Shown here: positions 8,009 to 35,600 of the stretch, in pieces
Layout of the letters: each line of letters opens with the position of its first letter
Position numbering within the stretch: position 1 is the stretch's first letter
DNA from: Ostreococcus lucimarinus
Lineage: Eukaryota
Length of the DNA: 64,000 nucleotides
Assembly (NCBI GenBank): GCA_000092065.1
Contig: CP000582.1
Strand: one strand, 5' to 3'
The notes under the pieces: model-generated
Databases searched by the model: none
What the model saw: only the letters and a program-made list of their open reading frames with translations
What the model was told of the DNA's origin: nothing
Made by a program: the position numbers and the translations under genes

Positions 8009-8099
8009 AAAGTGTACTTTATGAGCAACTTTTTCGTACGGCGACAATAATCTATGAATAAATGCGTGTGCTAAGGCGCCGACGGCGCGAAGACGCGAA

Positions 8100-11739: not shown

Positions 11740-12096
11740 AGCGACGACACACATTTCGCATATTTTTCAAAGTCTCCGAACGCGGGTCGAAGGGCGCGAT
11801 GAATCAGGAGGTGAATCTAACTTTCATAAATGCACGACATCATAAGGATCGAACGAACGAACGAACGACGAAAGGAAATTTTAATACATTACAACCGTTG
11901 CTTAGCGCGCGCTCGATCTCGGCTCGTCTCGGCGCCGCGCCGCGGGAAAGCACGTCACTTCGCACCTCGTGAGACGCCGTCGTCGATCGACGCGCGCATC
12001 TTGAAACGCATACTCCGGCGTATTTAGTCGCGCTCGAAACGCCCCGTTCGCTCGTTCGTCCGGTCTTATTCTACCTTCTCGTCGCGCGCTCAAACC

Positions 12097-16940: not shown

Positions 16941-17027
16941 CGATTAGATTAGTTTTAGAATAGCGCAGATTTTAATGTAGAACTTAGTAGTAGTTTGGTT
17001 TATTCGAGGACAACGTGCTGCTACGAA

Positions 17028-18557: not shown

Positions 18558-19053
18558 CGTTCGCGTCGCGTAGTGCGAGCGCTGGATACACTGGCGTCAT
18601 TCGCGCGTCGTCGATTCGTCAGTCCTCGTCGCGTCGTCGTCCGCTCGTTCGCCGAATCGCGTCGCGCGCGATCGCATCGCATTTAATCCAATCCGAATTC
18701 GAATCGAATCGCGCGCTCGAATCGCGTCGCGCGCGACGTCGCGCGTCGTCGCGCGTCGATCGTTCGCGCCCTCGCGTCGCGTCGCGCGCGCACCGTTCGA
18801 CGCGCGATCGCGTCGCGCGCGATCGCGCCGAGTCGTCGTCGCATCGCGTCGCGCTTTGGCAACGGTCGAGTCGCGGACCGACGGACGGCCGGGGACGGTC
18901 CGTGTGTCGCCTTCGCGGCGCCGCGTTCGGCGACGGCGCGTCGGCAAAACGCGCGGGACTCGACGACGACACAGGGCGTCGACTCGAGTCGCACCGCAAA
19001 GGCGCGCAGTGGTGCGACTCGTAACGCGACGGCGCCGCGAAGGCGCGAGAGAG

Positions 19054-21447
19054 ATGCGCGACGCCCGCGCGGAGGCACCGCGTCGTGGGAAAGATTTGAA
19101 ATTCGAATCGGCGTCGCGTCGAACGAGGGCGAGGGCGTCGCGCGAAGCGTTCTCGCCCGGGTCGAGCGCGTGCGCGTCCGAGCGTGGAAGTTTCGCGACG
19201 ACGACGACGGTCGAGAGCGCGTCGCGACGCGATGCGCGGGAATACACGCCGCCGCCGTTGACGGCGGAGGAGATCGCAGAGATGAACGAAGCCGTATCTG
19301 AGCTCGTCGTCGAGAGCTCCATCCCGTTCGCGTGGACGAGCTCGCCGGCGTTCTTCCGGTTCATGCACGCGCTTAGGCCTGAACTCTTCAGCGCCGCGGA
19401 GCGCGCGCGCATCGAAAGCGGCGCGGAGCTCGTCGACCAGCCCGAGAACCTTCGATGTCGCCGTTGGCACTCGACAGCCGGCGTCGACGGGTTGTACGAG
19501 AAACGTATGAAACGCGCCCTCCGTGCGCTTGAAGACTGGGAGGAGTTGGCGTTATCGGCGGATGGTTGGCAATCTGAAGATGGCGTGAAAGTACTAAACT
19601 TGTCCATAACGGTGAGAGAAACTGGTCGCGAGTACTACTGGAAGAGCGTCGAAATAGAAACGGAGTCAGAAAGCGCAGTGTTCATGCAACAGACCGCCGC
19701 GCAAGTGATGAAAGACCTCCCACTGAAGAAGTTCAAATGCATCATTGGGGACAACACCTCGCATGTCGTCAGCTTCTTGGAAGCTATCGCGGCTACTCCA
19801 GAGACATCTCACATTACTCCGATTGGTTGCTATGCACATCGTTTCAACTTGCTGGCTGGAGACGTCCACGAGACGTTCAAATTCTTATTTCTGGATCTAG
19901 AGCGGGCCATCAACAAGCTCCGTGTTCAGTCTCGAATGCGCGCGCTTTTCGACGCGGCGCGTAAAGAGAAGAATAGTAAGAAACAACTTGAGACGTACTG
20001 CCCAACGCGATGGGCGTCCGCGCATGCATGTCTACACAGCTACGTACTGAATATCGACGTGTTCAGATTTTTGGACGAAGACGACGGTGTGATCGCAAAA
20101 AATTTCCGTAAAATGTGTGAAAAAGACTCGGAATCAATCTTTAAAGTATTCTTTGACCGGGATTCGCAGATGGCAGTCCGTAGGTTAGAGCCCTTGTTCC
20201 GAGGTTTGGCGGCGGCAAACAAGTTTATGGAAGCTACTGGCGCTCATCTTGCGGAAGTCTTCCCGCTGTGCTGGGCACTAGAAAAAGACTTGAGACAGTG
20301 GCTCGCGAACGTGAAAACGAGTGCTCAACAGTCATGGATTGAACGTGCGACGCGCCAGTCATGGATTGAACGTGCGACGCGCCAGCCGACACGCGATGGA
20401 CTCACGACGCCTGAGCAATTATCAGACGTACTTCACCGAGTTTACAAAGTGCGATTCGAAGGACTGGAGGCACAGCCAGGTAACCCAAGCACGAAGCGCA
20501 CGCCGTTGCGAGACGAACCCCTCGTACATCTTGCATCATATTTGAGTTACATGATGCATGCGAGAATGCGTATCAAACATCAGTTCGTCGTGCCGGAAGT
20601 ATATGAAGCGAAAAAAGGTATCGGAAAGATTCATTTCCACTTGGAGGAAAAGAAAGCAGACGTGGAAGCAGCCAAAACGGCATTAGAAAAACTGAACGCG
20701 GTCACCTGTCCGAAAGCGGCACGACCCTACCGCGACGACTATCGCGTTCGCTTCATCGAGAATGACGCGTACATCCAAGCTTGCGCCGACAAAACGTTTG
20801 TGGACGTTACACTGGAGCAGCTTGAGTACATCAGGGCACACAACTGGTGGCGCAACTTCTTGGAGCCAGAATGCGTGCAAACCTGGCCTGCATGGAAAGA
20901 TCTAATTCCTTTCGCACGTCGTATAAACGCGATTGTTCCACATAGTGCGTCTGTTGAACGCATGAACTCGTCTCAGAAACTTGTGCACAACAAGAGGCTC
21001 AGCTTGAGCCACGCGAATGTCCAGAAGTTGTCTTTCATTTACTTCAATGCTAGGCATGAGCGCCGGTTATTCGCGAGTCCCTTTCATCGTTTGGTATCAG
21101 AGACATACGACGCAGCAGAAAGTCAAGTAGCCGCGAGTCCTGTGGTAGTTGTGGACAGCGACAGTGATGATGGAGTTGGTGAAGATGAAATCCTCTCGTC
21201 AGATGACGACGACTTAGACGAGTACTTAAAAGAGGTAGACGAGCTCGTCATGTCGCCACACGCAAACGTTTCGAATGGAACGGAAATGACAAGTTTAGGC
21301 AACCTCGATGAAACCGTGCCGGTACAGGATGATGTCTCGCATCCCACTCGGAACAAGGCAAAGGAAACTTTTGCACAGAAGACAGCTCGCAAGGCATTAG
21401 AGCGTCAAGAGAAGAAGAGACGTAGTAAGAGTAGAAGATTGCAATAG
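19054..21447 (+). CDS. hAT-family transposase (Ac/Tam3-like), apparently intact
   Basis: ORF open from 18856; in-frame ATGs at 19054 and 19282. hAT blocks are present: DGWQSEDG, CYAHRFNLL, PTRWAS, and the C-terminal hAT dimerisation domain WRNFLEPE...WKDLIPFARRINAIVPHSASVERMNSSQKLVHNKRLSLSHANVQKLSFIYFN. No BED finger seen. Confidence 0.8.
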   Translation: MRDARAEAPRRGKDLKFESASRRTRARASREAFSPGSSACASERGSFATTTTVESASRRDAREYTPPPLTAEEIAEMNEAVSELVVESSIPFAWTSSPAFFRFMHALRPELFSAAERARIESGAELVDQPENLRCRRWHSTAGVDGLYEKRMKRALRALEDWEELALSADGWQSEDGVKVLNLSITVRETGREYYWKSVEIETESESAVFMQQTAAQVMKDLPLKKFKCIIGDNTSHVVSFLEAIAATPETSHITPIGCYAHRFNLLAGDVHETFKFLFLDLERAINKLRVQSRMRALFDAARKEKNSKKQLETYCPTRWASAHACLHSYVLNIDVFRFLDEDDGVIAKNFRKMCEKDSESIFKVFFDRDSQMAVRRLEPLFRGLAAANKFMEATGAHLAEVFPLCWALEKDLRQWLANVKTSAQQSWIERATRQSWIERATRQPTRDGLTTPEQLSDVLHRVYKVRFEGLEAQPGNPSTKRTPLRDEPLVHLASYLSYMMHARMRIKHQFVVPEVYEAKKGIGKIHFHLEEKKADVEAAKTALEKLNAVTCPKAARPYRDDYRVRFIENDAYIQACADKTFVDVTLEQLEYIRAHNWWRNFLEPECVQTWPAWKDLIPFARRINAIVPHSASVERMNSSQKLVHNKRLSLSHANVQKLSFIYFNARHERRLFASPFHRLVSETYDAAESQVAASPVVVVDSDSDDGVGEDEILSSDDDDLDEYLKEVDELVMSPHANVSNGTEMTSLGNLDETVPVQDDVSHPTRNKAKETFAQKTARKALERQEKKRRSKSRRLQ
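20330..20383 (+). repeat. perfect 27-bp tandem duplication inside the transposase ORF (encodes QSWIERATR twice)
   Basis: The unit agtcatggattgaacgtgcgacgcgcc occurs twice consecutively. Confidence 0.9.
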
Positions 21448-21510
21448 ATAGACTAGCGCGCGACGTGAGTCGGTTTTCGCGCGGTTCTCGTCGATTCGCC
21501 ACCGTCGTGC

Positions 21511-21560
21511 CAGCTCGTACCAGCTCGTATCAGTTCGTATCATCTCGTATCAGCTGCGAT
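21511..21560. repeat. 5 x 10-bp imperfect tandem repeat (cagctcgtac/cagctcgtat/cagttcgtat/catctcgtat/cagctgcgat) followed by (gac)n
   Basis: Direct reading; located 64 bp after the transposase stop. Confidence 0.85.
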
Positions 21561-21639
21561 GACGACGACGACGACGACGAATGCGTACGGGTCGCGCGCG
21601 CGCGAAAGCTGCTCGATCGATCGCTCGATTATTACGATA

Positions 21640-22701
21640 TCACTCGTCGGGATGCGGGACGATGAAAGCGGCGGCGTCGGTGCGAACGTCGGCGTCGCGC
21701 GAACCGCGGCGACGGGACTCGGCGGCGGCGCGCGAGGGCGACGGCGAGGGCGAAGACGCGGGCGAAGCGACGAGCTCGCCGACGATGACGTCTCGCGGAG
21801 AATCGCCGAGGGCGTCGGGGTGAGGGTCGGTGGAGGCGGTGGTGACGGCGCGGGAGGGTCGCTTGCGACGGGCGTCGCGGCGCGCGCGTCTGAGAGCCGT
21901 CGCGAGGGACTCGCCGAGCGGCGCGCGCGAGTTTTCGGCGTCGGCGACGACGACGGGTAATCTCGGTAAACCTCGCGCCTCGATCGCGCTCACGATGACG
22001 GCGACTTCGCCGAGATCTAAACCGCTGAAAATTACCGCGCGCTGACTGCCGTACTCACCGCCGCGAGCGAGAGCCGCGTCGCGCGGCGATTCCCAGTCCG
22101 GTTCTCGCGTTCGAGCCACCTCTTCTAAAGTCATCCACGCGTGCTCGCTCCGCGCGGGGATCACGGGTACGTCGTAACCACCGAGTTCGTCCACCAGCAC
22201 GCGCACTCGAGGCCACTCTTCGGCGCGGAAACCGACGAGGATGACCGCCGGCGGTCCGCTCGGCGTCGACGCGGCCGCGTCGGCGACCGTCTTCGCCGTC
22301 GCGCGCGCGGTGATGCCCAATATCTCAGCCTCTCTCTCCTCGCTTAAATCACCGTGCGACGTTTCAGGTTCGTACTCCCACTCGTCGTCTTTTTTTGCGA
22401 CCGACGCCGCGTTCGTCGTCGCCGCGTCCCGCTCGGGCGCCGCGGCGTCTTCGACCCCTTGCGCGTCTCGCGCCTCACCCGCGCGCCGTTCGTCCTCCAT
22501 CGCCGCGTCCATCATCTTTTGCAACCACGGGTCATCGCCGCCGTCACCGTCGCGCGTCTCGCTCGCACCGCGCCGCGTCCTTTCGCGTCGTCGTCGTCCA
22601 CTCGCGACGCTGACGCGGCGGCGGCGAAAAGCAACCGCCGAAGACGCCGACGTCGACGTCGTCGCGCGACAGCGCGCCGCCGCGCCCGTCGCGGGCGCCA
22701 T
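21640..22701 (-). CDS. hypothetical protein (possibly DUF3783-like), acidic N-terminus
   Basis: ATG at 22701; 353 aa. The region PAVILVGFRAEEWPRVRVLVDELGGYDVPVIP ... SGLDLGEVAVIVSAIEARGLPRLPVVVADAE looks like a conserved small-domain protein. The family assignment is tentative. Confidence 0.4.
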   Translation of the reverse strand: MAPATGAAARCRATTSTSASSAVAFRRRRVSVASGRRRRERTRRGASETRDGDGGDDPWLQKMMDAAMEDERRAGEARDAQGVEDAAAPERDAATTNAASVAKKDDEWEYEPETSHGDLSEEREAEILGITARATAKTVADAAASTPSGPPAVILVGFRAEEWPRVRVLVDELGGYDVPVIPARSEHAWMTLEEVARTREPDWESPRDAALARGGEYGSQRAVIFSGLDLGEVAVIVSAIEARGLPRLPVVVADAENSRAPLGESLATALRRARRDARRKRPSRAVTTASTDPHPDALGDSPRDVIVGELVASPASSPSPSPSRAAAESRRRGSRDADVRTDAAAFIVPHPDE

Positions 22702-22958
22702 CGGTTTTGTTTCGTTTCGTTCGCTTTCGTTTCGTTTGACTCGGTGATGCGACGCGCGAGGAGTGAAGTGAAGCGAAGGGCGGTTGAATTCTGGTTTGTT
22801 TTGGTTCGTCGCGCCGCGCCGCGACGCTTGGGCGCCGTTGGTAATGTATTCGTTCGTAAAATACGCACCGTAGGCGTCGTCTAGGTGTGGATTCGTCGGT
22901 GATGTCGAGCGCGTGCCGCCGTCATCGCGCTAAAGCGTTTATTCAATCGCCGGTTCGC

Positions 22959-24038
22959 TCACGCGCGCCCGCCGTCGCGCATCGTGCCCACGCACACGCG
23001 AAGGGCAAACTCTAACATGCGGATCGGGATGAGAAAGACGCTGATCGGAAACGGAAGCTTGAAGCCGTACATGATTTGCGACCAAAATCCCGTCATCGCG
23101 AGGACGAAGATGGCGAAATTGAAAACCGTTCCTTTTTCATCGATGACGTTTGGTCCGAGGTACTTGTGGCGGACGAGATACGTCAACAGCCCACGAGCAA
23201 AGAGTTGTGCGCCACGCGTTGCAGAGTGATACGCGGTGATGGCCTGCTGAACTAACCACGCCGCGATGACACCTATGACTTTACAGGCATATCTCACGCC
23301 AGGTCCAACCCATTTCTGATACTCCTTGGGCGTGCTCATCATCAACACGGGGGTGAGATTTTCATCGACGATGTTGTGCACGATGTCACCAACAGCGACA
23401 CCAAGAGAGACACACGCCGCGAAATGCACGCGTAATGTAGCCACGACGGCCACGAACCCCATGTAGATCGCACCCAGAGCATCTCCAACCTGTTCAGGAT
23501 CCATACTCTTGGCGACGACGCCAATCTTTCGAACCACCAACGCCTTCTTCGTAATCTCTTGCGTATCCGGAATGCCGTTGTGGTCTTCATCTAGCTCATC
23601 GTCCTTCAAGCTCGCGCGCTGCGCAGCTTCGATATTGCGCCATATTATCACCAAAGCGTCTCGAGTGTTCGCGTAGCCGGTGATTCTGTACGCCTCCACC
23701 GCCGCCGTGATCGTGGCAAAGTATCCGCCAAAGAAGCACAGGATGAATCCAACGATCGCCGGTCCAAACTCTTGCGGGTGGTACGGTTGCAGCGCGAGCC
23801 AGGTTTTCCGACAAAACTCAAACGTGGCCACGGCGTAGGGTTCAGATTGCGCCGCCAAACGGCTCGCGGCGACGAGGGCGGGGCCGGCTTTATCTAATAC
23901 CGTTGGGAGCGTCGTCAAGCCCGCGGTGACGACGGACGGCGACGGCGCCGACTGGGCGACGACGTGTTTCACCGGCGGCGCCGAAGGCGGTGATTTCGTC
24001 GCCTTGTTGGATTTCAATTTACGCGAAAACACGGACAT
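22959..24038 (-). CDS. hypothetical polytopic membrane protein
   Basis: ATG at 24038; 359 aa with at least 6 hydrophobic helices (IVGFILCFFGGYFATITAAV, IYMGFVAVVATLRVHFAACV, VIGVIAAWLVQQAI, FNFAIFVLAMTGFW, ISVFLIPIRMLEF). GC about 52%. No family recognised. Confidence 0.5.
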   Translation of the reverse strand: MSVFSRKLKSNKATKSPPSAPPVKHVVAQSAPSPSVVTAGLTTLPTVLDKAGPALVAASRLAAQSEPYAVATFEFCRKTWLALQPYHPQEFGPAIVGFILCFFGGYFATITAAVEAYRITGYANTRDALVIIWRNIEAAQRASLKDDELDEDHNGIPDTQEITKKALVVRKIGVVAKSMDPEQVGDALGAIYMGFVAVVATLRVHFAACVSLGVAVGDIVHNIVDENLTPVLMMSTPKEYQKWVGPGVRYACKVIGVIAAWLVQQAITAYHSATRGAQLFARGLLTYLVRHKYLGPNVIDEKGTVFNFAIFVLAMTGFWSQIMYGFKLPFPISVFLIPIRMLEFALRVCVGTMRDGGRA

Positions 24039-24206
24039 CGGTCGCGCGCTCGAGGGCGCAGGCGAGAAGTGCGGAGTGCCTTTCGAGGCGCGCGACGGAT
24101 GTTGCGACTAGAATTACAATACTACAACATGCGCACATGCTTTCGCTACGCGACACGTGCACGGCGGGCTAAAGGACAGTGACTCGAGTCAGGCGCTTCT
24201 TTCGCT

Positions 24207-25142
24207 TCATAGTTTCTCTCCGATCAACTTTTTAAGCAAAACGCGTCTTGCTCCGAGTACCCCGCCGAGTCCGTACCACCACGGATCTTCGCCACAGGCG
24301 ACGTATCCCCGGCGCTCATACATCTCGCGTGCGCGCTGATTATCGACATCAACATGAAGCCAAAGATGGGTGTATCCCCAAAGCCGCGACGCACGTTCGC
24401 ACTTCACCAACATCGAGCTCGCGACGCCTCGTCCGCGCGCGTCGGCTTTGACGGCGACGTTACTGACGTACGGAACACGTGGTTTTGTCGTCGGAAATGG
24501 CTCCGGAAATAAAGCTTCTGGTGAACACACGCGAAGGCTTGCGCTTCCTACCCAACGAGACTCATCATCGGCGACGGCTTCGTCCAGGCGCGAGATCAGC
24601 GTCAAGCACTGCGCCTTTTGTCTCGCGCGAAGCGCTCGCGCGTCGTTTTTCGCGTATTCATCGCCGAGTTTCTTCATTTCACGAATTTCACGACTCGCCT
24701 TCTTCCGTTCTTCAATCTGGTGCGTCGTCATGTGCTTCAACTCCTTCGCGATCGAGCGCGCGTACGCGTCGTCCAACATTTTCTTCACCGCCTCCGCCGC
24801 GTCGTCCAGCGCGTCGCCGCGACGCTCGGACTTTTCCTCGACTCGCGTTTCGTACGCGAACGCGTCCCCGCAGACTTTCGCCGCCGCCGCCGCGTGCGCC
24901 GCCGTCGTCGCCACGCGCACGTGCACGCGCGCGCCGCGCGCCGCGCTACCGCCCGCGTCGTCGGCGGCGCGCGTGGACGTCGGCGAAGCGTCGTCGACGT
25001 CCGGCGCGGACCGCGTCAGCACGCGCGCGCGCGTCACCGAGGACGACGCGCGGGGAGTCGAGCGGCGCGACGGCAACGACGACGACGCGCGCGCGGTGGG
25101 ACAGGACGCACGCGCGCGCAGAGCGATTACAGCGGGCGTCAT
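24207..25142 (-). CDS. GNAT-family N-acetyltransferase with N-terminal organellar transit peptide
   Basis: ORF start 25208 is TTG; the first ATG is at 25142 (MTPAVIALRARASCPTARASSSLPSRRSTPRASSS...). GNAT motif A is present in the C-terminus (YVSNVAVKADARGRGVASSMLVKCERASRLWGYTHLWLHVDVDNQRAREMYERRGYV). Confidence 0.6.
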   Translation of the reverse strand: MTPAVIALRARASCPTARASSSLPSRRSTPRASSSVTRARVLTRSAPDVDDASPTSTRAADDAGGSAARGARVHVRVATTAAHAAAAAKVCGDAFAYETRVEEKSERRGDALDDAAEAVKKMLDDAYARSIAKELKHMTTHQIEERKKASREIREMKKLGDEYAKNDARALRARQKAQCLTLISRLDEAVADDESRWVGSASLRVCSPEALFPEPFPTTKPRVPYVSNVAVKADARGRGVASSMLVKCERASRLWGYTHLWLHVDVDNQRAREMYERRGYVACGEDPWWYGLGGVLGARRVLLKKLIGEKL

Positions 25143-25357
25143 AGCTTCTCGCAGGCCGCGGACGAGTGGCGCTGGAATGATCGCATCAACCCCGCTTGAG
25201 GCAAACAAACAAGGACTGAAGGAGACAAGACTTCGCTCAGCTCAGGAGGACGTTGTAAATAAGCTCTGTGCTTGCTCTTTTTCTAATGAACGGTGAATTC
25301 GACGATGATTTCAAAGACGGTTTAACTTGAATATTTCAAGGGTGTCGTACGTGATAC

Positions 25358-27324
25358 TTAAAATCGCTCACCGAATCGAACATATGTGGAGGCCGTGCCG
25401 CTGTTGTTATCAATGCACCACTCCGCTCGCACCGGCCCCAGTTTGATACCAACACCGTGAGTTGATCCTTTACCAGCTCTTCGATAAAACTCCGTTGGGT
25501 TACCTGATAACGCTGAACTTGACGATAAGTCGGAGCATTGCTCCCAAAATAAGAAGCCGTGTGTTTTCAATACAGGAACAGGGAGGCGTATCTCAACTGC
25601 AGTCTCGAGAAGAGAGCGTGCGGCGCCAAGTTCACCCACGGTGTATCCTCTACAAGAGTGCGGGCCACCCAAAGCAAAAGCATCGTAAGCTGCGCAATTC
25701 CCAAGAATGTGACCTGCTCGAGTGTGCAAGACAACAACAGGAGGAGGAAGAGAATTTTTCTTGTTTTCTGGCAGCAACTGAACAAATCGTGTTAATTCGA
25801 CTTTGGAACGGTTGAATATCGGTCGTTTTGGCCAAAACGGAATCGACTGATCGATCTGAAATATATCTCGGGCGCCGACTTGCGTACCGTTTACAAACGT
25901 CGTCGTGTCTCTGGTGACATTACCCTGAAGGAACATGACTCGATCTGTACCTGTGTCAGATAACGTAGTTCGAGGACCATCAAGCGACAGAGAACCATTT
26001 GGGAGTTGTTTTGCGCCAGACGCACATACCGCTCCCGAATCATCACGCGTTGTCACTTCTTCTAATACCATACCAAGTGAGCACTTCGACTGCTTTGTAA
26101 AGTTCTGGCAAACCGTCGCCTTGATACCTGCTCTATCGACCCAAATGCCGGGAACATCTTGAATCAGAGGCCCTCCGGTGAAGACCGGGGACAGTTTCCG
26201 CGAATTGAAAGCCGCAGCTTTGAAAGATGTCTTATCGCTATCAGCGTCGCCTTTGCAGTACGGGTGGTTGTACTCCAGTTTGAACCCCAGATCTTCCTGT
26301 GGTTCAAGGAAGTTGGCTGTTGAAATCGACCCAAAAAGTTGACGTCCCCAGCTATCCAGATTCCTGTGTTCAAAGAACACAGAACCACCTGGACGCGCCG
26401 AAACAAGATCTGGACGACCATTTTCACCTGGTGCGATACTCCATTCAAGTTCAGTCTCCGCTGTCTTCGTTGGTCTTTCGCGAAGTAGTATATCAACTTC
26501 AATTTTGGATGGATCGCGCTCATCAGGTCTCGGTACAACTTGGACGTTGTCAAACAACTGCAGTAGGAAAATATCACGCAATGCCGTCTTCGCGTCTTCG
26601 ACGTTATAGAGTTTTCCAACTTTAAAATTATGTTCCCTCTGAATCACACGCGGATGAGTCACTCCCTTGTTGCCAGGCATTGGCTGGAGATTCTCGTCTA
26701 CAAAGACCGCTTGGACTCGTGTGATTTCTCCCTCGACGACGTGTGCTATGACCTCACCATTTTCCATTCCATCGAAGTGTGATATCGTACCGAATGTGAG
26801 GCCCTTGCTGGTGTAGTAACCCTCTACGATATTTTTTGCTGTCGCCAACACGCGGACTGTACAGTTTTGACTTTTCCGAGCAGCTTTCAAAACCTCTTGT
26901 TCGACATCTTTTGGAAGTGCAGTCGACCCAGCAACTCTAAACGATTGTACCTGCGGCCAGATCTTTTCTCGAAAAACAAACTCAACTGCGTAACCATCCT
27001 GTTTGGGCGTGACATTGGCGTCAACGTTTGCGAAGAGACCTGTGTTAAGAAGCTGTTCAAGATCATCAGAGAGATCTTTCTTCGAAAGTTCCGCGCCCTT
27101 CCGCGCATTGAGACCCTGAAATAATTCGGACTGTATTGAAAGGAGTTAGTAATAAGTTAAATATTCATGCCGCCTTCCTTACCTTCGTCGGAATACCTGG
27201 ACCGGTCGGAAGATTCGTCGCGAGGACTGATTCACAAATGAAATTATCCCTGTTCTTGGGCTTGTTTGCGGCACGGGCAGTATTTGTGGAGGATTCGTCG
27301 TCGCTGTCGTCGTCGTCATCATCT

Positions 27325-28250: not shown

Positions 28251-29624
28251 ATGGGAGGTCGCAAGAAGACGTCGTTTGTGGATAAAAAGAGCGCGGTGAC
28301 GTACGCGTTGCTCCCTAACCACGACCGACAAGCGCACAGCCTCGGCCTTCCTAACACATGGGTCCGGACGGACAATAACCAGGGTGCGGACCCCTTCGAT
28401 GACGGCGATCACGTTGGGCGGGAACTCGAACGTGAGCTCCGAGAAAGCCATTCACAACACGTGTCCGCGGGCGATCTTTCAAATGAAAAGGACACAAACA
28501 ATAAATTGACGGCATCAGAGAAGTTGGAACTAGGACTTCCAGACGACGGCTATGATTACACTAAACACTTAAGAGAGTGCGACCCAGATAAAGTACGTAC
28601 CGTAGAAAGTGATTATGCAAATCCACGCAGTGAGATATTTACGAAAAGCATTGACCACGCAAGAACCGAGTATGCGGGCGGGGCAATGAACCAAGGCGAG
28701 TGTGATTTTCACACCTTGCACGAACAAGATAACATTGCCGACGTGTTACAACTTCTTGACGACATAAGCCAAGGCGGATCAATGGAAACCTGCGCTTACG
28801 AGGAGTTACAAGACGATATAATTTTCTTGGCTAGTCAGCGTAAAAGTGAAGAGCGGTGCTCATCGCCTTTCTTGCCCCGAAAAGTAGAGCCGTTGAGTCC
28901 GCAAACCCATCGTGCAGCCACGAAAGTATTAGTAAGAAGTTCAAGTGATGCGGTAGGGAACGAACGTTCAGACGATAGCCATTTTCTGCGTATGATCCAT
29001 AACTACGATGACGACGATCTTGGCGCTACGCCGATGAAAGATGAGAGCAATATTAGATCTGAGAACACAAAATGGCAGACTCTTGAGCAGTTGAACTTCA
29101 ACGATGGAAATTTACAAAAGCATAACGTGGATGCACGCACAGTGAAAAGTTATGCGCTCAATCATAGTGAGGAACAAACTCCACGAAATGCCTACTTAGA
29201 AGAAAGCATTCTGGACAAAAGAACTCAAGCGACCCACATGTATGACTGCGAAAGCATTTTGAGTTTGCACAGTAACTCAAACCATCATCCAAAACTTCTT
29301 GAAGGGAGACTTCTGAGTGAAGAACGTAAATTGAAAACGCCAGATCAACAGAGTGCAAGCATTCCGGGCATTCATACTTGTTTTCCTCTCGGTATGAAAG
29401 CATCATCAGAAGCTGAATTCGATTGGCGCAGCTGCACAGCTCGTAAAGGAGAAAGTGCTCAACAGAAAAAGGAGCGCAAAAATGCCGTCAAAATGGGCCG
29501 TCGACAAGCTCGAAGTACGAAAAAGGGGTTGAAAGAAAGTTTTCAATATTTCAAGCAAGCAGGAGCTGGGGGCGGTAGCTCTGGGGATGTAAGAGCAAAG
29601 ATATCTGTGACAAAAATGCAGTAG
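28251..29624 (+). CDS. LTV1: LTV1-like ribosome biogenesis factor homologue
   Basis: ATG at 28251. The N-terminus MGGRKKTSFVDKKSAVTYALLPNHDRQ matches the conserved LTV1 start (MxKKKFIDKKxAVTFxLVxRSQ). The middle is acidic and low-complexity. The C-terminus is basic (QQKKERKNAVKMGRRQARSTKKGLKESF) as in LTV1. Confidence 0.55.
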   Translation: MGGRKKTSFVDKKSAVTYALLPNHDRQAHSLGLPNTWVRTDNNQGADPFDDGDHVGRELERELRESHSQHVSAGDLSNEKDTNNKLTASEKLELGLPDDGYDYTKHLRECDPDKVRTVESDYANPRSEIFTKSIDHARTEYAGGAMNQGECDFHTLHEQDNIADVLQLLDDISQGGSMETCAYEELQDDIIFLASQRKSEERCSSPFLPRKVEPLSPQTHRAATKVLVRSSSDAVGNERSDDSHFLRMIHNYDDDDLGATPMKDESNIRSENTKWQTLEQLNFNDGNLQKHNVDARTVKSYALNHSEEQTPRNAYLEESILDKRTQATHMYDCESILSLHSNSNHHPKLLEGRLLSEERKLKTPDQQSASIPGIHTCFPLGMKASSEAEFDWRSCTARKGESAQQKKERKNAVKMGRRQARSTKKGLKESFQYFKQAGAGGGSSGDVRAKISVTKMQ

Positions 29625-29675: not shown

Positions 29676-32600
29676 TTATTTAGGTGTCATTTTCGACAAC
29701 AAATTGATCGCATCTGATAGCGCAGATTCATCAATTTTTTCTTCTATTCGCAGATCCAAGTACTTGTGTTCGATACCGAAGCATAAAGACAGCTCGTTGG
29801 AAATCCCTTCAAGCTCACTGATGACACAAATAGGAATATCAGACATGAAGTCAGGATTGACACGGAATAATGGATCACGCGATGAGTAGAGGAGCTGAGT
29901 GCAGCATAGAATACTCAATGTCTCGTTCGGGCATTCATTGACACTATTTGGATTGCTCTCTATAAATACTCTGCGCAAACTTGCGTTGACAGATGCGGAT
30001 TCGTTCTTGACTTCAGGATAAGAGGATGCAAGCAATGCCGCATAACTGAGAATTTTTCCTACATCCGAATTATTCTGTTGCGAGACGAGGACTTCATACT
30101 CTTTTGTGAATAAAGTAACCAAGCCAAGTATTTTTGGGTTCGACTGTATTGCATCACTGGCTTGCTCGCGCCAAGATGGGTCTGCGCATACATGTTGCTT
30201 TGTTTCACACAGTCTCACGAATTCTCGAGCGATATACACTCCTAAACCACGCGTGACTAGTATCACTTCATCGCCGTTGTTAATGTCTAAATAAGCGCGT
30301 ATGCGTTGCACATACATTGCGGCAAGCTCTGAGACGCTTGCTGCGGTGGAGGATTGCCAGTCCGTAGTAACGACGAAAGCTGCTGATTTTATCGACGAAG
30401 CTAGGCTGGAATAAAAACTAGTTCCACAGTCTACGTCATTGAGAAAGACGACTATGGGAGTTGTTGTATTACCATTCAATCGCGTAATAAAGCTTCGACT
30501 CACAGGTGAATTTCTATGCTTCCATTGCGGGAGTCGGTATCTCAAAGTAGCTGCAATGCGCTGAGATTGCTCAGATAGGTTACCTGGAGAAGCTGCATCT
30601 TTCCAGGCATTGGCCAGAGTCGGATTTATGAAACAATGCGACAGAATATTAGGGTCTGCGGCACCTTTTCCTCCCGGTTCGATGGGCTCAAACATTTTCG
30701 CATTATTATAAGAATAAGGATTTGTCATGTTCGTGCAAGAGGGCAATTTTAGAAAGTCGCATATTTTGTCGATATGCGACGTAGGATCAGAAACTAGGTC
30801 TTCGTAACAAATTTCCAATTGTCGAGTACTTTCTACATTGCGCAGAAAATCAATGATGTTGGAATTTCCTCGTGCCCATAATTTATCCATATGGCTCCAG
30901 ATCTGCTCGATGGTGGATGCAGATAGAAGCTCCAAACGTTTGCGGCCATTTAATTGTAGCAACTTCTCATTTTCAAGGATATCATGCCTTGATTTGAAAG
31001 TTTCTTTTGACATGGAGTGGATCGTTGCGTACGGATGCCTGTGTATGAATATATAGTACACATCTTCAAATATTGATTCGGCTCGTTCCAAAGTGTCCAA
31101 AGACCACGAATAAGGTGGCGACTTGTCCACTAGAATCCGATCGCCACACCAATTTTGAAGGACTTCATAGACATTCTTTGTTGACATGGAATGCATGTCG
31201 TGCATTATTTTATCAGCTTCATCGGCGAAACAGCCGCGAAGTTCTACAATAGCTTTACGCAAACCTTCAAACGCCCACGAGTGTCCACGAGATATTGACT
31301 CAAACCTTTGGTACATCGTCTCAAAATTTAGCAAGTAAAGTTCTTGAGGTGCAAAAATTGATGGATGAGAGTTTAGTATCATCTGCAAAAGAGTTGAACC
31401 AGACCTCGGCGACGACAACACGAATAGTATCTTTCCCTTCACCTTTGGCTCGTGGAGCCGTAATCGGGGCATCCATGAATTCGAATCTGTTAGTGGCGTA
31501 TACTTTTTAACTTGCGACTCTATCCACAAACAAATGCGCTCACCGGCACTTAATCCTACTGAGAATGTTTCGCGTGTGACCACTTTGATTGCGGCGTCAA
31601 CACTCGCTGCGATCCCTTTGATAGTATTCTCTCTGAATTCGCCAGACCCACAGTGGCTGAATCCAATATCTCGCAGTACATTGTGCAAAGGCTCTGACAT
31701 TGACAGTGGATGTCGGCGTCGACATGGCTCGTTTCTGCTAAGTGAGCTGTGTAACTCGTTCCAAATACATTTTTGTAGTTGGAAGGTCAACCGATTTGCG
31801 TCAACATGAGTATTCTGGTTAGCGGCGTTGCATCTGGTAAGTAGAACGTTTTGTCTGTGGCGAGGTTCTTGAAAAGCCCGGCAATCGCGGCGCACATTTG
31901 TGAGCACGTGTGCCATACTACCGCCATAACCAAAAGAGCTCGTGCCGATTATACCTCCGCTAGTGGGCCCTTTTAGCATAGGAAAGTGTGATCGCTTGTC
32001 CAAATTTACATCTCTCCATGTGTGTCCCATCTTCTCTGCGGTTGTGCACGCATGTTGCCCTAGTAGTAGATTGTTCAATTTTCTAAAATGAACCAATGGT
32101 GATGTCAATAAAGCGTGACTCATGAGGGCAGACTTGATCAGTGAAATCATACCAGATGCACCATCGAGGTGCCCTAAATTGGTATGTAAACTACCAAATC
32201 CTATGTTTGAAGTGCGAGATGGGTCTTCAAAACAGAATATACGCTGGTATGCACCGATTTCTATTGCGTCGCCAAGTGGCTCACCTAGTCCAGATGCTTC
32301 TACGAATGCAACGTCTGCTGGTAGTATGTTAGCATCAAGCAGTGCACGGTGCACTTTGTACTCAATTGCCGGTCCTCGAAGCGCTCTGAGCGAAGCGCCG
32401 CCGCCTTTATGTATACACGAGGACCCCAGGAGCGTGACAAGCATAAATTTGCTACTGGTGGCTTTGTATGTACAGATCATGACTGCACCGACGCCTTCAC
32501 CTCGCTCAAATCCGTCCGCTTGAGCATCAAATGTTTTGCATCGACCATCAGCTGGAAACATCTGACGTGCAATATGTAAATCTGATAATTGTCTGTGAAG

Positions 32601-35600
32601 TATGATATTCGAACTCGCCGCTATGGAGGAGTTAGCATATTCAGGATCTGATGGCACATTCACTTTAGAAGAACTCGTAGCGAGATGAATACAAACTAAT
32701 CCTGACGCAGACGCGCAGTCGATAGAGATAGATTCGCCTTGAAACCCAAATGTGTGACTTATTCGATTCGACGCAAAAGCATACGTCGATTCGGACATAC
32801 CATGCGCAATATTTGATAGCTTATCGTGGGCAGAGCAGCCTGAATCTGTGAACATCACACGGAACGCTTCGTCCCTTGCCACAGAATCACTGTCATTCGT
32901 ACATATACCTACGTATACTGATATTTTTTGCTCGTAAACGCGCGTACTCTTGTCTGAATATGGTACATCGGTAACTTCATGGCACGCTTTCAGCAACTCG
33001 CGCTGTTGCGGTTCAAGAAGTGATCGAACATCAGATCGGCCAATTCCAAAAAAGTTTGAGTCGAAAACGTCAAGCTGTCTTAGGAACGAGCCGTGCCTAC
33101 TATATTCGTGATAGACAAAATCCCGCTTTCTACTAATACCGGTGAAAGAAAATATACGTTCAACATCCCAGCGATCTATGGGGATCTTCCTAATTGCATC
33201 TATACCGTTTGCGATTGCGCCACAAAATTGTACCGGATGCATGATATGTTTGCAATCTGCGTCACCCGTGTGCACTGCGATACATGCCACCGAGCTTATG
33301 ATACCATCCTGAACGACGATACGCATGGGCTCTTTGGCAGATGGTTTGCAATCATCTATTTTTTGCCGAAGAGTCGTCTTATGGATAAATTTTGATAACG
33401 ATGTGATTGTTGGATGGTCAAACGCAACTGTTGACGGCAATGGTACGTCAAAGCATATTTCTATGGAACGGGATAGCTCCGTGAGATACATGCTGTCTAA
33501 TCCAGCGTCTATGAATGGCATATTAGCGTCAATAGTGTGTCCGAGAACCCGGCGAACATGATCAGACACAAGGGATTGTGTCTCTGATAACGTGCTGGGA
33601 TGTGTACGATCTGTACACAATAACGTTCGCTTTGAATCCGTTGAAACACCTTGCGACAGTAACGGGATGGACAATTTATCCCAAAGAAACATGTTTGCCA
33701 CTATGGTCGCATCTTGTATCATAACGCTGTTCAAAATCGACAGTATATGTATCCCAACCTTTGTGGGCACTGACCCAATACCAAATCGAGTCAGACTGTC
33801 AAGCTGCAATGCGCTTTGCTTCATCATTCCTGTCAAGTTTACCCACGCTCCCCATTGAACACTAACTTTATCGAGACCTTGATGGTGTGCGTAGTTGCAA
33901 TGTGCATCTAACGAAGAATTGGCAGCGACATAGTTCACTTGCCCAAACGTTCCTAGCAGCACAGAGATCGAGGAGTAATAATCAGTTTGAACTGATAACG
34001 AAGTCGGATCGCGAATACTCGCTAGAGATCCGATTAGTTTCGGAGACACGACGACACGAATCGTATAGGCTGTCTGTTTCGTCGCGATAGCGTCACGAAG
34101 AACACCGGATGCAAAGAATGAACGATTAACTTGAACTCGAGAATTGTGCCATGTATTGTCTGAGTAGTGGCAGTTATCAACGGAATCAACAGTTACTGAA
34201 TGGGATGAGGATCCGTTCCAAACGACAACAGAGTATGAACATCGACCACTTCGGTTCGTCAAGCGAATCAATCGCTGTCCATTCAGCAGTGCTGTGATGT
34301 ACACAAGTTTACCAATTTCACCAGCACCGTGTACTTCTGTTTGATTATTTTTACATTGATTGTTGCGACGCATGTTAGCCGGCGATGAATGAGTCGAACA
34401 TAGATTCGGCGTAAACGCAAGATGACCAACGGCACTGACGTGGCGAAGACGCGCTGTGGTGTTTGAGATACCCGACGGATGTATGCGAGCTGAATCTCCC
34501 GTACATACGGCATATGTTGTATTTTTATTTTCGACACAAAACACTCTTGGTAGTGTCGATAGTGTCAGGTCGGATATATGTTTATGTATACTCGATATTG
34601 GCGATGGAAATATGCGTTTTGTGACGGGTGCTGATTTGCTGAGTACACATAGGTGCTTAGATTCGCTCGAAGTTGTGAGCGCACAAATTGAATGCAAAAT
34701 ATTCACAACGGTTGGCAGTGATCCGCATCTGTGGACGCTGCGGCGGTAGTTGCACAATGTATGCCGAACAGTAGTTGTAGCACAAGTGTCGCCATTGGGT
34801 GCAACATTAACTCGAAGCGGGCTCGCCTCCCAGCGAAGAGCATACAAATATTCAACATTTGGAACACTTGAGCGAGATGAAGACGGCGATGTGGATGTGC
34901 ACAATACAGAGTCAGTTGAAATGTGCAAGAACACCTCTGGTGTAAACGTTGACCAATTTTGACGTGAATAATTGTACTTGAACCTGTGATCACTCAGTAT
35001 AATGCAACACATGAGCGTGTCGTGTTGCGCATATTGAACGGTACATGAACGTCGATATAGCTCAACAGTCCGTACATACGCGACGGAGTTACCGCCGGTG
35101 AACGTATCGAGCAAAGTACATCGCAAACGATGTTGAGGCTTTTCATGGTATTCATTGGATTCAACATGAATATCTGCAGAAGACAAGCCGCCATGCATTT
35201 CGCGAAATTTAACAAACCCTTGTTCTGCATCAGCGTATGCTGCCACTGTGTTCGCATTTAACCCGACGCCGTGTTCACCAGCTCGCACAGTAGCATGTGT
35301 GCTAGCGATAGCGTTGGATTGAGCATCAATTACTTTATATCCCGACCCGTACACGAGAACTTTATTTGATTTTAGATATGCATCTAAAACTTTCGAGGCA
35401 TACACAGTTGAAAGTACTACATTTTTTAGTGAGAGTTCTGTGGTACGATCATCCAAAATCAAACATGTGGCATCAGATGCAACTTGCAACGGTGATGAAG
35501 TAAGAGCATTTACGGTAGCGTTGAAGCGAATCGAAACACAAGCCATAGTGAGTGTCGATAAAGCGACTGTTGCACGCGAGCTTAGCTGTGATATCCAACA

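What the first reader, a model, noticed from the sequence alone, without database searches (positions are those of the whole stretch)
25150..25360. Abrupt GC-content boundary: about 68% GC gene-dense region switches to a <=50% GC block
Between the GNAT start (25142) and the Toc75 stop (25358), composition changes within about 100 bp and stays low to the window end (38.8 kb). The low-GC side holds housekeeping genes (Toc75, LTV1) with an intron and AT-rich promoters, plus the megasynthase. This resembles the low-GC outlier chromosomal regions described in Mamiellophyceae genomes. Those regions are intron-richer and compositionally distinct, and are proposed to be sex/mating-type related.
Basis: partly seen in the sequence, partly recalled or inferred. 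Interest (0 to 1): 0.7.

Follow-up and report, generated by a model that had tools for sequence, protein, structure and literature searches.

The report
Edge of Ostreococcus mating-type low-GC region
The sharp GC drop is real and marks the already-described edge of the low-GC candidate mating-type region on chromosome 2 of the tiny marine green alga Ostreococcus lucimarinus, so it is a correct re-discovery and not a new phenomenon.

Summary
The GC boundary is real. The maximum-likelihood change point is at about 25,200: 60.7% GC to the left (not 68%) and 46.8% to the right, which stays at or below 53% to the window end. None of 3,000 block shuffles reached the observed signal.

The window is Ostreococcus lucimarinus CCE9901 chromosome 2, shown by exact protein matches. 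The literature calls CCE9901 the MT- strain and places the candidate mating-type locus (BOC1) in the low-GC part of chromosome 2. It used this same sharp GC drop to define the locus boundaries, and it places giant PKS genes inside BOC1.

New detail from public metagenome contigs:
- A second, commoner haplotype is about 99% identical to the window up to base 25142, the GNAT start codon.
- It is unalignable from 25143 onward. It carries different genes there and is equally low in GC (about 46%).
- Toc75, the first gene inside the region, groups by haplotype type and not by species across two O. tauri assemblies.
- GC3 falls from about 72% to about 45%. CpG observed/expected falls from 1.70 to 1.15.

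Novelty: already known. The most likely mechanism is loss of recombination and of GC-biased gene conversion between two ancient haplotypes. That mechanism is inferred, not shown here.

The parts
1..25142 (.). High-GC flank (60.7% GC, CpG observed/expected 1.70) shared by both haplotypes. It behaves as an ordinary recombining chromosome arm.
   Evidence: GC. It is 98.9-99.3% identical to haplotype-B contigs L007-L011 from window 12.9 kb up to 25142. There are no haplotype-A versus haplotype-B differences in the first 600 bp next to the boundary, and polymorphisms are shared by both groups from 1,062 bp outward. CpG observed/expected.
24207..25142 (-). GNAT acetyltransferase gene (311 aa). It is the last shared gene, and its ATG at 25142 is the last base common to the two haplotypes.
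   Evidence: PF00583 at 53.1 bits against a cutoff of 20.7. The junction alignment shows identity from the ATG inward and no similarity upstream.
25143..25357 (.). First 215 bp of the haplotype-specific low-GC region. It holds the GNAT upstream/5' region and the Toc75 3' end, and contains the maximum-likelihood GC change point (about 25,200).
   Evidence: GC is 47.9%. There are no tRNA genes and no flanking direct or inverted repeats beyond CG-rich low-complexity matches.
25358..27130 (-). Toc75 (chloroplast outer-envelope translocon channel), exon 2. GC3 of the stretch measured (25358-26851) is 44.8%.
   Evidence: Omp85 PF01103 at 62.9 bits. About 50% identity to plant TOC75-3. tblastn of P0046 and GC3.
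27131..27182 (-). Toc75 intron: 52 nt, GT...AG with a TACTAAC-like branch site, 34.6% GC. It belongs to the short-intron size class reported for this chromosome region.
   Evidence: Sequence. The spliced product equals P0046. GC. The 40-65 bp intron class is described in PMC2367439 and PMC3491373.
27183..27812 (-). Toc75 exon 1. It encodes a transit-peptide-like N-terminus followed by Gly-rich and acidic stretches.
   Evidence: P0046 residues 1-210 match at 100%.
28251..29624 (+). LTV1-like ribosome-biogenesis gene (457 aa), GC3 45.6%.
   Evidence: Identical to CCE9901 ABO94428, and cluster members are named 'protein LTV1' by JGI. Human LTV1 in PDB 6g18_t matches at E = 8.2e-5. No Pfam hit.
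29676..64000 (-). Giant modular type I polyketide synthase. The window holds nine KS domains plus a C-terminal sulfotransferase region. The ORF continues past the window end.
   Evidence: A KS active-site motif sits at 63995 with no upstream stop codon. Pfam finds KS, KR, ACP and sulfotransferase domains. It probably corresponds to OluPKS3, 14 modules, of PMC4661987. Overall GC is 46.5%.
35587..44269 (-). Tandem array of near-identical PKS modules (period 3,702 bp, 99.7-99.9% identity). It forms a 51.5% GC sub-block inside the 44.8% GC gene.
   Evidence: Self-BLAST and GC. The secondary change points at 35,690 and 44,490 coincide with the array ends.

Best explanation
Window base 25142/25143 is one edge of the low-GC 'BOC1' region of chromosome 2 of Ostreococcus lucimarinus CCE9901, which is the candidate mating-type (MT-) locus.

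To the left lies ordinary chromosome that both mating-type haplotypes share. To the right, two ancient haplotypes exist in nature that can no longer be aligned. The window carries one of them (Toc75, an LTV1-like gene and a giant PKS). The commoner one carries a Tpa1/Ofd1-type oxygenase, a kinase, an RPE65-GST fusion, a cyclin and TIMELESS.

Proposed mechanism. The two haplotypes do not recombine with each other, so the region escapes GC-biased gene conversion. That process keeps the rest of this genome near 60% GC against an AT-biased mutation spectrum. Both haplotypes have therefore drifted independently to about 46% GC, mainly at silent sites and by CpG-to-TpG decay. The flank is homogenised by recombination right up to the boundary.

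Shown here: the species and chromosome record, the base-exact homology break, equal low GC in both haplotypes, the GC3 and CpG signatures, and the Toc75 split by haplotype type across species.

Inferred, not shown: that recombination is suppressed inside the region in O. lucimarinus, that biased gene conversion is the cause of the GC difference, and that the locus actually controls mating.

My confidence in the identity is about 0.95. My confidence in the recombination/gene-conversion mechanism is about 0.65.
For: - Identity: three window proteins are exact matches to CCE9901 proteins on an 895,087-bp record, and Toc75 ABO94670 is on that record as well.
- Literature: CCE9901 is MT- and the low-GC part of chromosome 2 is the candidate MT locus (PMC7016971). 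MT boundaries were defined by the sharp 9-17% GC drop, and an equilibrium GC of 0.36 under mutation bias versus the observed 0.60 is attributed to biased gene conversion (PMC8557840). Recombination suppression was measured in the O. tauri low-GC region, where the two haplotypes (650 and 450 kb) group across species (PMC5498103). PKS genes lie inside BOC1, which has sharp boundaries.
- Homology break: haplotype-B contigs of 145-531 kb from independent metagenomes are about 99% identical to the window up to 25142 and unrelated beyond it.
- The window's own junction recurs in independent assemblies L001, L002, L037-L039 and L087.
- Haplotype B is 45.8-46.3% GC for at least 16.8 kb, against 46.8% in the window.
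- GC3 is 68-82% on the left, 41-49% on the right and 43-49% in haplotype B.
- CpG observed/expected falls from 1.70 to 1.15 (1.12 in haplotype B), while TpG and CpA rise from 0.8 to 1.2-1.27.
- Toc75 tree: CCE9901 groups with O. tauri CAL52071 (100% bootstrap, 88% amino-acid identity). O. tauri OUS42082 falls in a separate clade (100% bootstrap) at 75% identity.
- Flank: no differentiation next to the boundary. Shared polymorphisms start at 1,062 bp, and a 2.56-kb element 3.7 kb away is present or absent on both backgrounds.
- Haplotype-B-specific proteins occur on about 430-520 public contigs, against tens for haplotype A. This matches the reported MT+ excess of 52-97%.
Against: - Mating has never been observed in Ostreococcus, so 'mating type' is an inference in the literature as well.
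- I could not place the window in chromosome coordinates, nor see the far edge of the low-GC block. The reference DNA was not retrievable, and the PKS runs off the window.
- The small outlier chromosome of the same genomes is also low in GC without being a mating-type locus (PMC3491373). Low GC therefore does not require a mating-type locus.
- Metagenome contigs are unphased consensus sequences. The four-gamete style evidence for recombination in the flank is only suggestive.
- I did not physically link an MT+-type Toc75 to the O. lucimarinus haplotype-B contigs.
- That OUS42082 comes from strain RCC1115 (MT+) is inferred from its accession series and a different chromosome length. No tool stated it.
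- In another Ostreococcus lineage (L047), Toc75 is not next to a GC boundary. The exact boundary position is therefore not universal.
Confidence: 0.8

Rival explanations
1. The low GC is a property of an insulated chromatin compartment and not of lost recombination. In this view BOC1 is a TAD-like, hypomethylated, highly transcribed domain with its own mutational or repair regime, and the mating-type association is secondary.
For: bioRxiv 10.1101/2025.04.21.649811 reports TAD-like insulation with sharp boundaries, lower CpG methylation (22.2% falling to 19.2% in O. lucimarinus BOC1) and 1.86-fold higher expression. The small outlier chromosome is low in GC without being a mating-type locus. 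The dinucleotide regime changes at the boundary, not only the GC level.
Against: The compositional switch coincides to the base with the end of inter-haplotype homology. Two non-homologous haplotypes have converged on the same GC. A recombination-based cause predicts both facts directly. Lower methylation alone would predict better, not worse, CpG retention, yet CpG observed/expected is lower inside the region. The two views are not mutually exclusive.
Confidence: 0.15
2. This is an ancient balanced, non-recombining 'supergene' dimorphism with some function other than mating type, for example ecological or viral-interaction morphs. The GC decay follows from non-recombination as in the best explanation.
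For: Two haplotypes coexist widely. The Toc75 split crosses species. No cross or zygote has ever been observed. The boundary-proximal genes I saw are housekeeping genes or a PKS, not obvious sex genes.
Against: The literature reports an RWP-RK (MID-family) gene in the minus-type haplotypes, including CCE9901 (PMC8557840; PMC5498103). It also reports that both types co-occur in every Tara sample containing the species, as expected for mating types. I did not test either point.
Confidence: 0.08
3. This is a local insertion or a horizontally acquired island, for example a PKS cluster dropped into a normal chromosome, and not a regional compartment.
For: A giant PKS with foreign-looking composition occupies most of the low-GC sequence in the window. 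The region is absent from most conspecific contigs.
Against: The first genes inside are vertically inherited green-lineage housekeeping genes, including Toc75 with about 50% identity to land-plant TOC75-3 and a spliceosomal intron. The alternative allele is not an empty site but a different, equally low-GC gene set of at least 16.8 kb on contigs extending more than 100 kb. No tRNA gene or flanking repeats were found at the boundary, and no integrase domain appeared among the boundary-proximal proteins scanned. The PKS family is shared with O. tauri and Micromonas.
Confidence: 0.02
4. This is an assembly chimera joining a high-GC Ostreococcus contig to DNA of a lower-GC organism such as Bathycoccus.
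For: Bathycoccus has about 48% GC and co-occurs with O. lucimarinus.
Against: The exact GNAT|Toc75 junction is reproduced at 99.0-99.98% identity in at least six independent metagenome assemblies that span it (L001, L002, L037, L038, L039, L087). The proteins on both sides are annotated on the same CCE9901 record.
Confidence: 0.01

Closest known systems
Candidate MAT locus (M-/M+) on chromosome 2 of Ostreococcus tauri (Blanc-Mathieu et al. 2017, PMC5498103; Benites et al. 2021, PMC8557840)
   Same: A low-GC block on the big outlier chromosome. Two haplotypes are unalignable at nucleotide level while the flanks are more than 99% identical. Housekeeping genes are trapped inside. Gametologs group by haplotype type across species. 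The boundary is recognisable as a sharp GC drop. The O. tauri minus-type Toc75 falls in the same 90% cluster as the window's Toc75.
   Different: A different species. Here the alternative (presumed MT+) haplotype is seen only as metagenome contigs. In the papers I read it was known from a transcriptome and from read mapping. Toc75 is 75% identical between types, much less diverged than the 53% reported for five core genes, so the edge gene may belong to a younger layer. That last point is tentative.
BOC1 low-GC region of Mamiellales big outlier chromosomes (Moreau et al. 2012, PMC3491373; bioRxiv 10.1101/2025.04.21.649811)
   Same: Lower GC than the genome. Short introns of 40-65 bp. Clustered housekeeping genes. 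A giant type I PKS inside. Sharp edges.
   Different: Nothing essential differs; the window is an instance of this. The one intron I examined has canonical GT-AG ends and a branch-site-like motif, whereas the class is described as lacking conserved motifs.
Mating-type loci and UV sex-determining regions of other haploid algae (Chlamydomonas and Volvox MT, Ectocarpus UV). This comparison rests on my own knowledge and on citations within PMC5498103.
   Same: Haploid-phase dimorphic, rearranged, non-recombining regions. They contain shared gametologs together with haplotype-limited genes, and they are flanked by recombining sequence.
   Different: No cross, gamete or zygote has been observed in Ostreococcus. 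In Mamiellales the region is strongly GC-depleted relative to a GC-rich genome, which makes its edge visible from composition alone.
Pseudoautosomal boundary of mammalian sex chromosomes. This is an analogy from my own knowledge and was not tested.
   Same: An abrupt switch between a recombining, GC-richer segment and a non-recombining segment, located at or within a gene.
   Different: The mammalian system is diploid XY, with one degenerating partner. Here both haplotypes are gene-dense, equally low in GC and haploid-expressed. I found no evidence that the flank has elevated GC or elevated recombination relative to the genome average of about 60%.
Small outlier chromosome (SOC) of Mamiellales (chromosome 18 in O. 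lucimarinus, 53% GC; PMC3491373)
   Same: Lower GC than the rest of the genome in the same organisms.
   Different: In the SOC the whole chromosome is affected. [quoted passage not shown] The window's genes are conserved housekeeping genes and sit on the chromosome 2 record.

Membership tests
Mamiellales BOC1 / candidate mating-type locus | Lies on the big outlier chromosome (chromosome 2 in O. lucimarinus) | tested here: met
   Exact matches to CCE9901 proteins ABO94668, ABO94428 and ABO94666 on an 895,087-bp record, and to Toc75 ABO94670 on that record too. That this record is chromosome 2 follows from the literature and was not read directly from the record.
Mamiellales BOC1 / candidate mating-type locus | Sharp GC drop of about 9-17 percentage points at the boundary (criterion used in PMC8557840) | tested here: met
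   60.7% falls to 46.8%, a drop of 13.9 points. The change point is at about 25,200 and the transition takes about 150-200 bp.
Mamiellales BOC1 / candidate mating-type locus | One contiguous low-GC block of hundreds of kb flanked by high-GC sequence on both sides | not testable with these tools
   Only 38.8 kb lie in the window, and the PKS runs off its end. Reference chromosome DNA was not retrievable. Indirect support: haplotype-B contigs extend 117-504 kb beyond the boundary by their record coordinates, but I could read only 16.8 kb of them.
Mamiellales BOC1 / candidate mating-type locus | Two haplotypes unalignable at nucleotide level inside the region, with flanks more than 99% identical | tested here: met
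   Identity is 98.9-99.3% up to 25142 and there is no BLAST match beyond it. Both junction types recur in independent assemblies.
Mamiellales BOC1 / candidate mating-type locus | Genes inside group by haplotype type and not by species (trans-specific gametologs) | tested here: met
   This was tested for Toc75 only. The CCE9901 copy groups with O. tauri CAL52071 (100% bootstrap), separate from O. tauri OUS42082 (100% bootstrap); identities are 88% versus 75%. Assignment of OUS42082 to the MT+ strain is inferred.
Mamiellales BOC1 / candidate mating-type locus | Recombination suppressed inside the region and normal outside it | tested here: inconclusive
   Outside: no A/B differentiation, polymorphisms shared from 1,062 bp outward, and an indel segregating on both backgrounds. 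These contigs are unphased metagenome consensus sequences. Inside: the complete lack of homology implies no homologous exchange, but rho was not measured.
Mamiellales BOC1 / candidate mating-type locus | Short (40-65 bp) AT-rich introns and clustered housekeeping genes | tested here: met
   A 52-nt, 34.6% GC intron in Toc75. Toc75 and the LTV1-like gene are housekeeping genes. Only one intron was examined.
Mamiellales BOC1 / candidate mating-type locus | RWP-RK (MID-family) gene in the minus haplotype, and an actual role in mating | not tested
   No such gene was looked for, and the window covers only the edge of the region. Mating has not been observed in the genus according to the literature.
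Horizontally acquired genomic island | Foreign phylogenetic affinity of the cargo, mobility genes or repeats or a tRNA gene at the borders, and an empty site in relatives | tested here: not met
   Toc75 is a vertically inherited green-lineage gene with an intron. No tRNA gene or border repeats were found. The alternative allele is a different gene set, not an empty site.
Assembly chimera | The junction is unsupported by independent data | tested here: not met
   The junction is spanned by L001, L002, L037, L038, L039 and L087, which come from different samples and assemblers.

The most novel reading that the evidence does not exclude
The boundary may be a base-exact, evolutionarily stable recombination edge that sits on the start codon of the GNAT gene. 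One shared coding sequence would then be driven by two completely unrelated, haplotype-specific upstream regions, giving a built-in mating-type-specific regulatory switch at the locus edge.

In addition, the full O. lucimarinus alternative (presumed MT+) haplotype, which in the papers I read was known only from transcripts and read mapping, may be recoverable from existing metagenome contigs. One example is the 531-kb Ga0527078_0087. Such contigs would allow both edges and the evolutionary layers of the locus to be mapped without a culture.
Probability: 0.3. Interest if true: 0.4.

Novelty: already known. Interest (0 to 1): 0.22.

Why it matters
[quoted passage not shown] The window shows its edge clearly, and reading the edge from raw sequence alone was a good call. 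The phenomenon, its location in this strain, its use as a boundary marker and the PKS inside it are all published, so the finding adds no new biology.

The modest increments from this work are:
- A base-exact boundary for O. lucimarinus, at the GNAT start codon.
- Genomic sequence of the alternative haplotype next to that boundary, taken from metagenomes.
- Evidence that the edge gene Toc75 is itself an old dimorphic gene.
- A CpG-to-TpG decay signature that fits the idea of lost GC-biased gene conversion.

Tried and rejected
1. Chromosome coordinates. I tried to obtain them by looking up window proteins in public assemblies. The 895-kb NCBI record is listed for the proteins, but its DNA was never returned. 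The window therefore could not be placed on chromosome 2, and whole-chromosome GC could not be plotted.

2. A nearby chromosome end. Many contigs end about 27.8-28.0 kb from the boundary, so I suspected the high-GC flank ends at a telomere. The contig ends (L051, L052) turned out to be a CG-rich trinucleotide low-complexity coding repeat about 2.7 kb left of the window start, not telomere repeats. I dropped the idea.

3. GC beyond the megasynthase. The listed ORF start at 63965 is an artefact. The frame is open to the window end and begins inside a KS active-site motif. A pattern search from the window end would only have landed in more PKS, so I ran no further search on it.

4. Linking an MT+-type Toc75 to the O. 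lucimarinus haplotype-B contigs. The metagenome scan with P0057 returned 80 loci. None overlapped the 16.8 kb of haplotype B that I hold, and the 531-kb contig was not among them. It remains unresolved which metagenomic Toc75 belongs to O. lucimarinus haplotype B.

5. Conservation of the GNAT|Toc75 boundary in another Ostreococcus lineage (P0051/L047). There, Toc75 is followed by 1.5 kb of low-GC sequence with no GNAT, so the boundary is not conserved in that lineage.

6. A CCE9901 gametolog of the haplotype-B RPE65-GST gene. The nearest relatives are at most 60% identical, and none of the listed hits is named as CCE9901. This was inconclusive.

7. Mobile-element hallmarks at the boundary (tRNA genes, repeats). 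None were found.

8. Terminal inverted repeats for the 2.56-kb polymorphic element. Only CG-rich noise was found.

9. Confirming that haplotype B is strain BCC118000 (MMETSP0939). MMETSP members exist in the cyclin and kinase clusters, but their organism is not given.
Full report
OBSERVATION

A 1-kb composition profile shows GC of 0.51-0.70 from 1 to 25 kb and 0.42-0.53 from 26 to 64 kb. A single change-point model places the switch at about 25,200, with a log-likelihood ratio of 602. GC is 60.7% on the left and 46.7% on the right. None of 1,000 shuffles at each of three block sizes (500, 1,000 and 2,000 bp) came near this value; the null maximum was 289. A Mann-Whitney test on 1-kb bins gives p = 6e-11.

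In 100-bp windows GC falls from 0.80 at 24950-25099 to 0.44 at 25200-25299 and 0.37 at 25250-25349. The switch lies in the 215-bp spacer between the GNAT start codon (25142, minus strand) and the Toc75 stop codon (25358-25360, minus strand).

The left side is 60.7% GC, not 68%. The right side averages 46.8%, with 9 of 38 bins at 50-53%.

The shift is concentrated at silent sites. GC3 is 68-82% in eleven of the twelve left-side ORFs measured and 41-49% in Toc75 exon 2, the LTV1-like gene and the PKS. The dinucleotide regime also changes. CpG observed/expected drops from 1.70 to 1.15, while TpG and CpA rise from about 0.8 to 1.2-1.27.

WHAT THE SEQUENCE IS

Three window ORFs are residue-for-residue identical to Ostreococcus lucimarinus CCE9901 proteins ABO94668, ABO94428 and ABO94666, all on an 895,087-bp record. 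The CCE9901 Toc75 entry ABO94670 is on that record too.

Gene identities:
- GNAT: a clear PF00583 match.
- Toc75: has the Omp85 domain and is about 50% identical to land-plant TOC75-3.
- Toc75 structure: two exons separated by a 52-nt GT-AG intron at 27131-27182 (34.6% GC). The spliced translation equals the 800-aa protein P0046.
- LTV1: a weaker assignment. There is no Pfam hit, but human LTV1 in PDB 6g18 matches at E = 8e-5, and JGI names the cluster LTV1.
- Megasynthase: a modular type I PKS with nine KS domains in the window and a C-terminal sulfotransferase region.

The PKS reading frame is open to the last base of the window and starts inside a KS active-site motif. The gene therefore continues beyond the window, and the listed start at 63965 is not real. 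It probably corresponds to the 14-module OluPKS3, described with duplicated modules by Shelest et al. 2015 (PMC4661987).

WHAT IS ALREADY PUBLISHED

- All Mamiellales have a big outlier chromosome with one contiguous low-GC sub-region (BOC1) between high-GC flanks. BOC1 is rich in housekeeping genes and in short introns of 40-65 bp (PMC3491373; PMC2367439).
- In O. tauri this region exists as two unalignable haplotypes of 650 and 450 kb, with suppressed recombination. Genes in them group across species, so it was proposed as a mating-type locus (PMC5498103).
- Benites et al. 2021 used the sharp 9-17% GC drop to define the locus boundaries in eight genomes, including O. lucimarinus. They called CCE9901 MT-, and they attribute the GC difference to lack of GC-biased gene conversion against an AT-biased mutation spectrum (PMC8557840).
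- Leconte et al. 2020 mapped Tara reads to CCE9901 chromosome 2. They saw reduced coverage over the low-GC region and estimated that the opposite type (MT+) makes up 52-97% of natural populations (PMC7016971).
- A recent preprint describes sharp BOC1 boundaries, TAD-like insulation, hypomethylation and giant PKS genes inside BOC1, including in CCE9901 (10.1101/2025.04.21.649811).

INDEPENDENT TESTS MADE HERE

1. Haplotype dimorphism exactly at the GC switch. I looked up the flank protein encoded at 22959-24038 and retrieved metagenome contigs of 145-531 kb (L007-L011). They match the window at 98.9-99.3% from about 12.9 kb up to base 25142 and not at all beyond it. The junction alignment shows identity from the GNAT ATG inward and unrelated sequence immediately upstream.

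Beyond the break these contigs carry, in order, a Tpa1/Ofd1-type 2OG oxygenase, a protein kinase, an RPE65-GST fusion, a cyclin and TIMELESS, followed further out by ELO, TAF4 and PTPA genes. I call this haplotype B. It is 45.8-46.3% GC over the 16.8 kb I could read, with GC3 of 43-49%. That is the same as the window's haplotype A.

2. The window's own junction is genuine. It is spanned at 99.0-99.98% identity by independent assemblies L001, L002, L037-L039 and L087. Many haplotype-A contigs stop 55-100 bp into the shared flank. That is expected where an assembly graph forks between two alternatives.

3. Relative abundance. Haplotype-B-specific proteins occur on about 430-520 public contigs, and haplotype-A-specific ones on tens. 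This fits the published MT+ excess. None of the listed members of the haplotype-B protein clusters is attributed to CCE9901.

4. A split by haplotype type across species. The CCE9901 Toc75 and O. tauri CAL52071 (on a 1,074,072-bp chromosome 2 record) fall in one 90%-identity cluster. A second O. tauri Toc75, OUS42082 (on a 1,047,055-bp record), falls in another cluster at 73% identity to the query.

A neighbour-joining tree on 561 ungapped columns puts CCE9901 with CAL52071 at 100% bootstrap. It puts OUS42082 with an abundant metagenomic type (P0057) at 100% bootstrap. Identity is 88% within a type across species and 75% between types within O. tauri. That OUS42082 belongs to the MT+ strain RCC1115 is my inference: only two annotated O. 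tauri assemblies are described. The 75% figure is much higher than the 53% reported for five core genes, so this edge gene may belong to a younger layer. That is tentative.

5. The flank behaves as recombining sequence.
- In the first 600 bp next to the boundary the clonal CCE9901 sequence shows no differences from four of five independent haplotype-B contigs.
- Over 4.5 kb, divergence between A and B (1-2.4 per kb) equals the diversity among B contigs.
- Polymorphisms shared by A-linked and B-linked contigs begin 1,062 bp from the edge.
- A 2.56-kb element 3.7 kb from the edge is present or absent on both backgrounds.

Because metagenome contigs are unphased consensus sequences, this is suggestive and not proof.

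MECHANISM

The best-supported account is the published one. The two haplotypes cannot recombine with each other, so GC-biased gene conversion no longer offsets AT-biased mutation, and both haplotypes decay in GC. Four results here fit this account:
- The compositional edge coincides with the homology edge to within about 60 bp.
- Two non-homologous haplotypes have converged on the same 46% GC.
- The effect is concentrated at third codon positions.
- CpG is lost while TpG and CpA are gained.

None of these measures recombination or gene conversion directly. I put the identity of the feature at about 0.95 and the mechanism at about 0.65.

The main rival for the mechanism is a chromatin-compartment explanation. 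It is supported by the fact that the small outlier chromosome is also low in GC without being a mating-type locus, and it is not exclusive of the recombination model. A rival for the function is an ancient balanced supergene unrelated to mating, which stays open because no cross has ever been seen. A local insertion or horizontally acquired island is rejected for these reasons: the genes are vertically inherited and intron-bearing, the alternative allele is a different gene set and not an empty site, and there are no tRNA genes or border repeats. An assembly chimera is rejected because independent contigs span the junction.

LIMITS

- I could not retrieve the reference chromosome, so the window's coordinates and the far edge of the block were not seen.
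- Contigs end about 2.7 kb left of the window start in a CG-rich low-complexity coding repeat, not at a telomere. No claim about distance to the chromosome end is made.
- I could not link an MT+-type Toc75 physically to O. lucimarinus haplotype B.
- In another Ostreococcus lineage Toc75 is not at a GC edge, so the exact boundary is not universal.

VERDICT

The feature is an already-described one in a reference genome. The increments are a base-exact boundary at the GNAT start codon, alternative-haplotype genomic sequence from metagenomes, the Toc75 split by haplotype type, and the CpG decay signature. Interest is low (0.22).

Noticed in passing
window 18906-21467: A 2.56-kb segment is a presence/absence polymorphism. 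It carries an 863-aa ORF with a sub-threshold DUF659 match (29.2 bits against a cutoff of 34.7), and its composition is lower than its surroundings (GC 53%, GC3 60%). It is present in the window, L007-L016, L029, L038 and L039. It is absent, replaced by about 85 bp, in L027, L028 and L030, and L037 also lacks the gene. It may be a transposon-like insertion, but no clear terminal inverted repeats were found.
   Followed up: partly
window 35587-44269: Inside the PKS, a tandem array of about 2.35 near-identical modules (period 3,702 bp, 99.7-99.9% identity) is 51.5% GC, against 44.8% for the rest of the gene. The array ends coincide with the secondary GC change points at 35,690 and 44,490. Gene conversion between copies might raise GC locally, or the duplication may be recent; neither was tested. 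Metagenome scaffolds such as L001 collapse these copies.
   Followed up: partly
window 29676-35600: The PKS C-terminus has a KS whose active-site motif reads DCASAS where the other KS domains read DTACSS, followed by a sulfotransferase domain (PF13469 and PF00685). This arrangement resembles sulfotransferase-assisted chain release, from memory of CurM-type modules. A thioesterase was not tested.
   Followed up: no
window 63965-64000: The ORF list gives the PKS a GTG start at 63965. In fact the frame is open to the window edge and begins mid-KS (IDTACSSSLV), so the gene is truncated by the window and exceeds 11,441 codons.
   Followed up: yes
L027/L035 versus L028-L034, locus positions 1-4276 (about 12.5 kb from the boundary inside haplotype B): Haplotype-B contigs fall into two structural versions beyond about 12.5 kb from the boundary. 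One has a PP2C gene and the other has a 334-aa protein, PTPA and TAF4. Haplotype B also splits into two sequence sub-lineages that differ by about 5.3 per kb in the low-GC part, with at most 0.4 per kb within each. This could be population structure, cryptic sub-types or assembly artefacts.
   Followed up: partly
window 17600-20600 (4.5-7.5 kb from the boundary): A local hypervariable stretch in the otherwise conserved flank shows 25-90 differences per kb between contigs. It overlaps the 5' end of the 2-oxoacid dehydrogenase E2 gene, whose called products vary (436, 509 or 549 aa), and the polymorphic element.
   Followed up: no
flank protein at window 22959-24038, and haplotype-B proteins on L009: NCBI entries labelled '[bacterium]' are identical to O. 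lucimarinus flank and haplotype-B proteins: MDA9620614, MDA9620615 and MDA9620617, carrying locus tags N9S66_00575 and N9S66_00600. A published bacterial MAG therefore contains Ostreococcus nuclear contigs.
   Followed up: no
window 1-25142 versus 25143-64000: The high-GC flank has a strong CpG excess (observed/expected 1.70) and a TpA deficit (0.56). Both low-GC haplotypes sit at a CpG observed/expected of about 1.12-1.15.
   Followed up: partly
L051 1-200 and L052 1-180 (about 2.7 kb left of window position 1): Several independent assemblies break at the same CG-rich trinucleotide (GCC/GTC) low-complexity coding repeat. This explains the recurrent contig ends about 27.9 kb from the boundary.
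   Followed up: yes
L026 (Ga0373644_0000640): Another low-GC (46%) Ostreococcus-like contig carries an RPE65-GST gene, a small PKS fragment and an MT- type Toc75 (87% amino-acid identity) in that order. It ends 177 bp after the Toc75 stop codon. This hints that RPE65-GST may lie just beyond the PKS in minus-type haplotypes, and that Toc75 may be the edge gene in that lineage as well.
   Followed up: no
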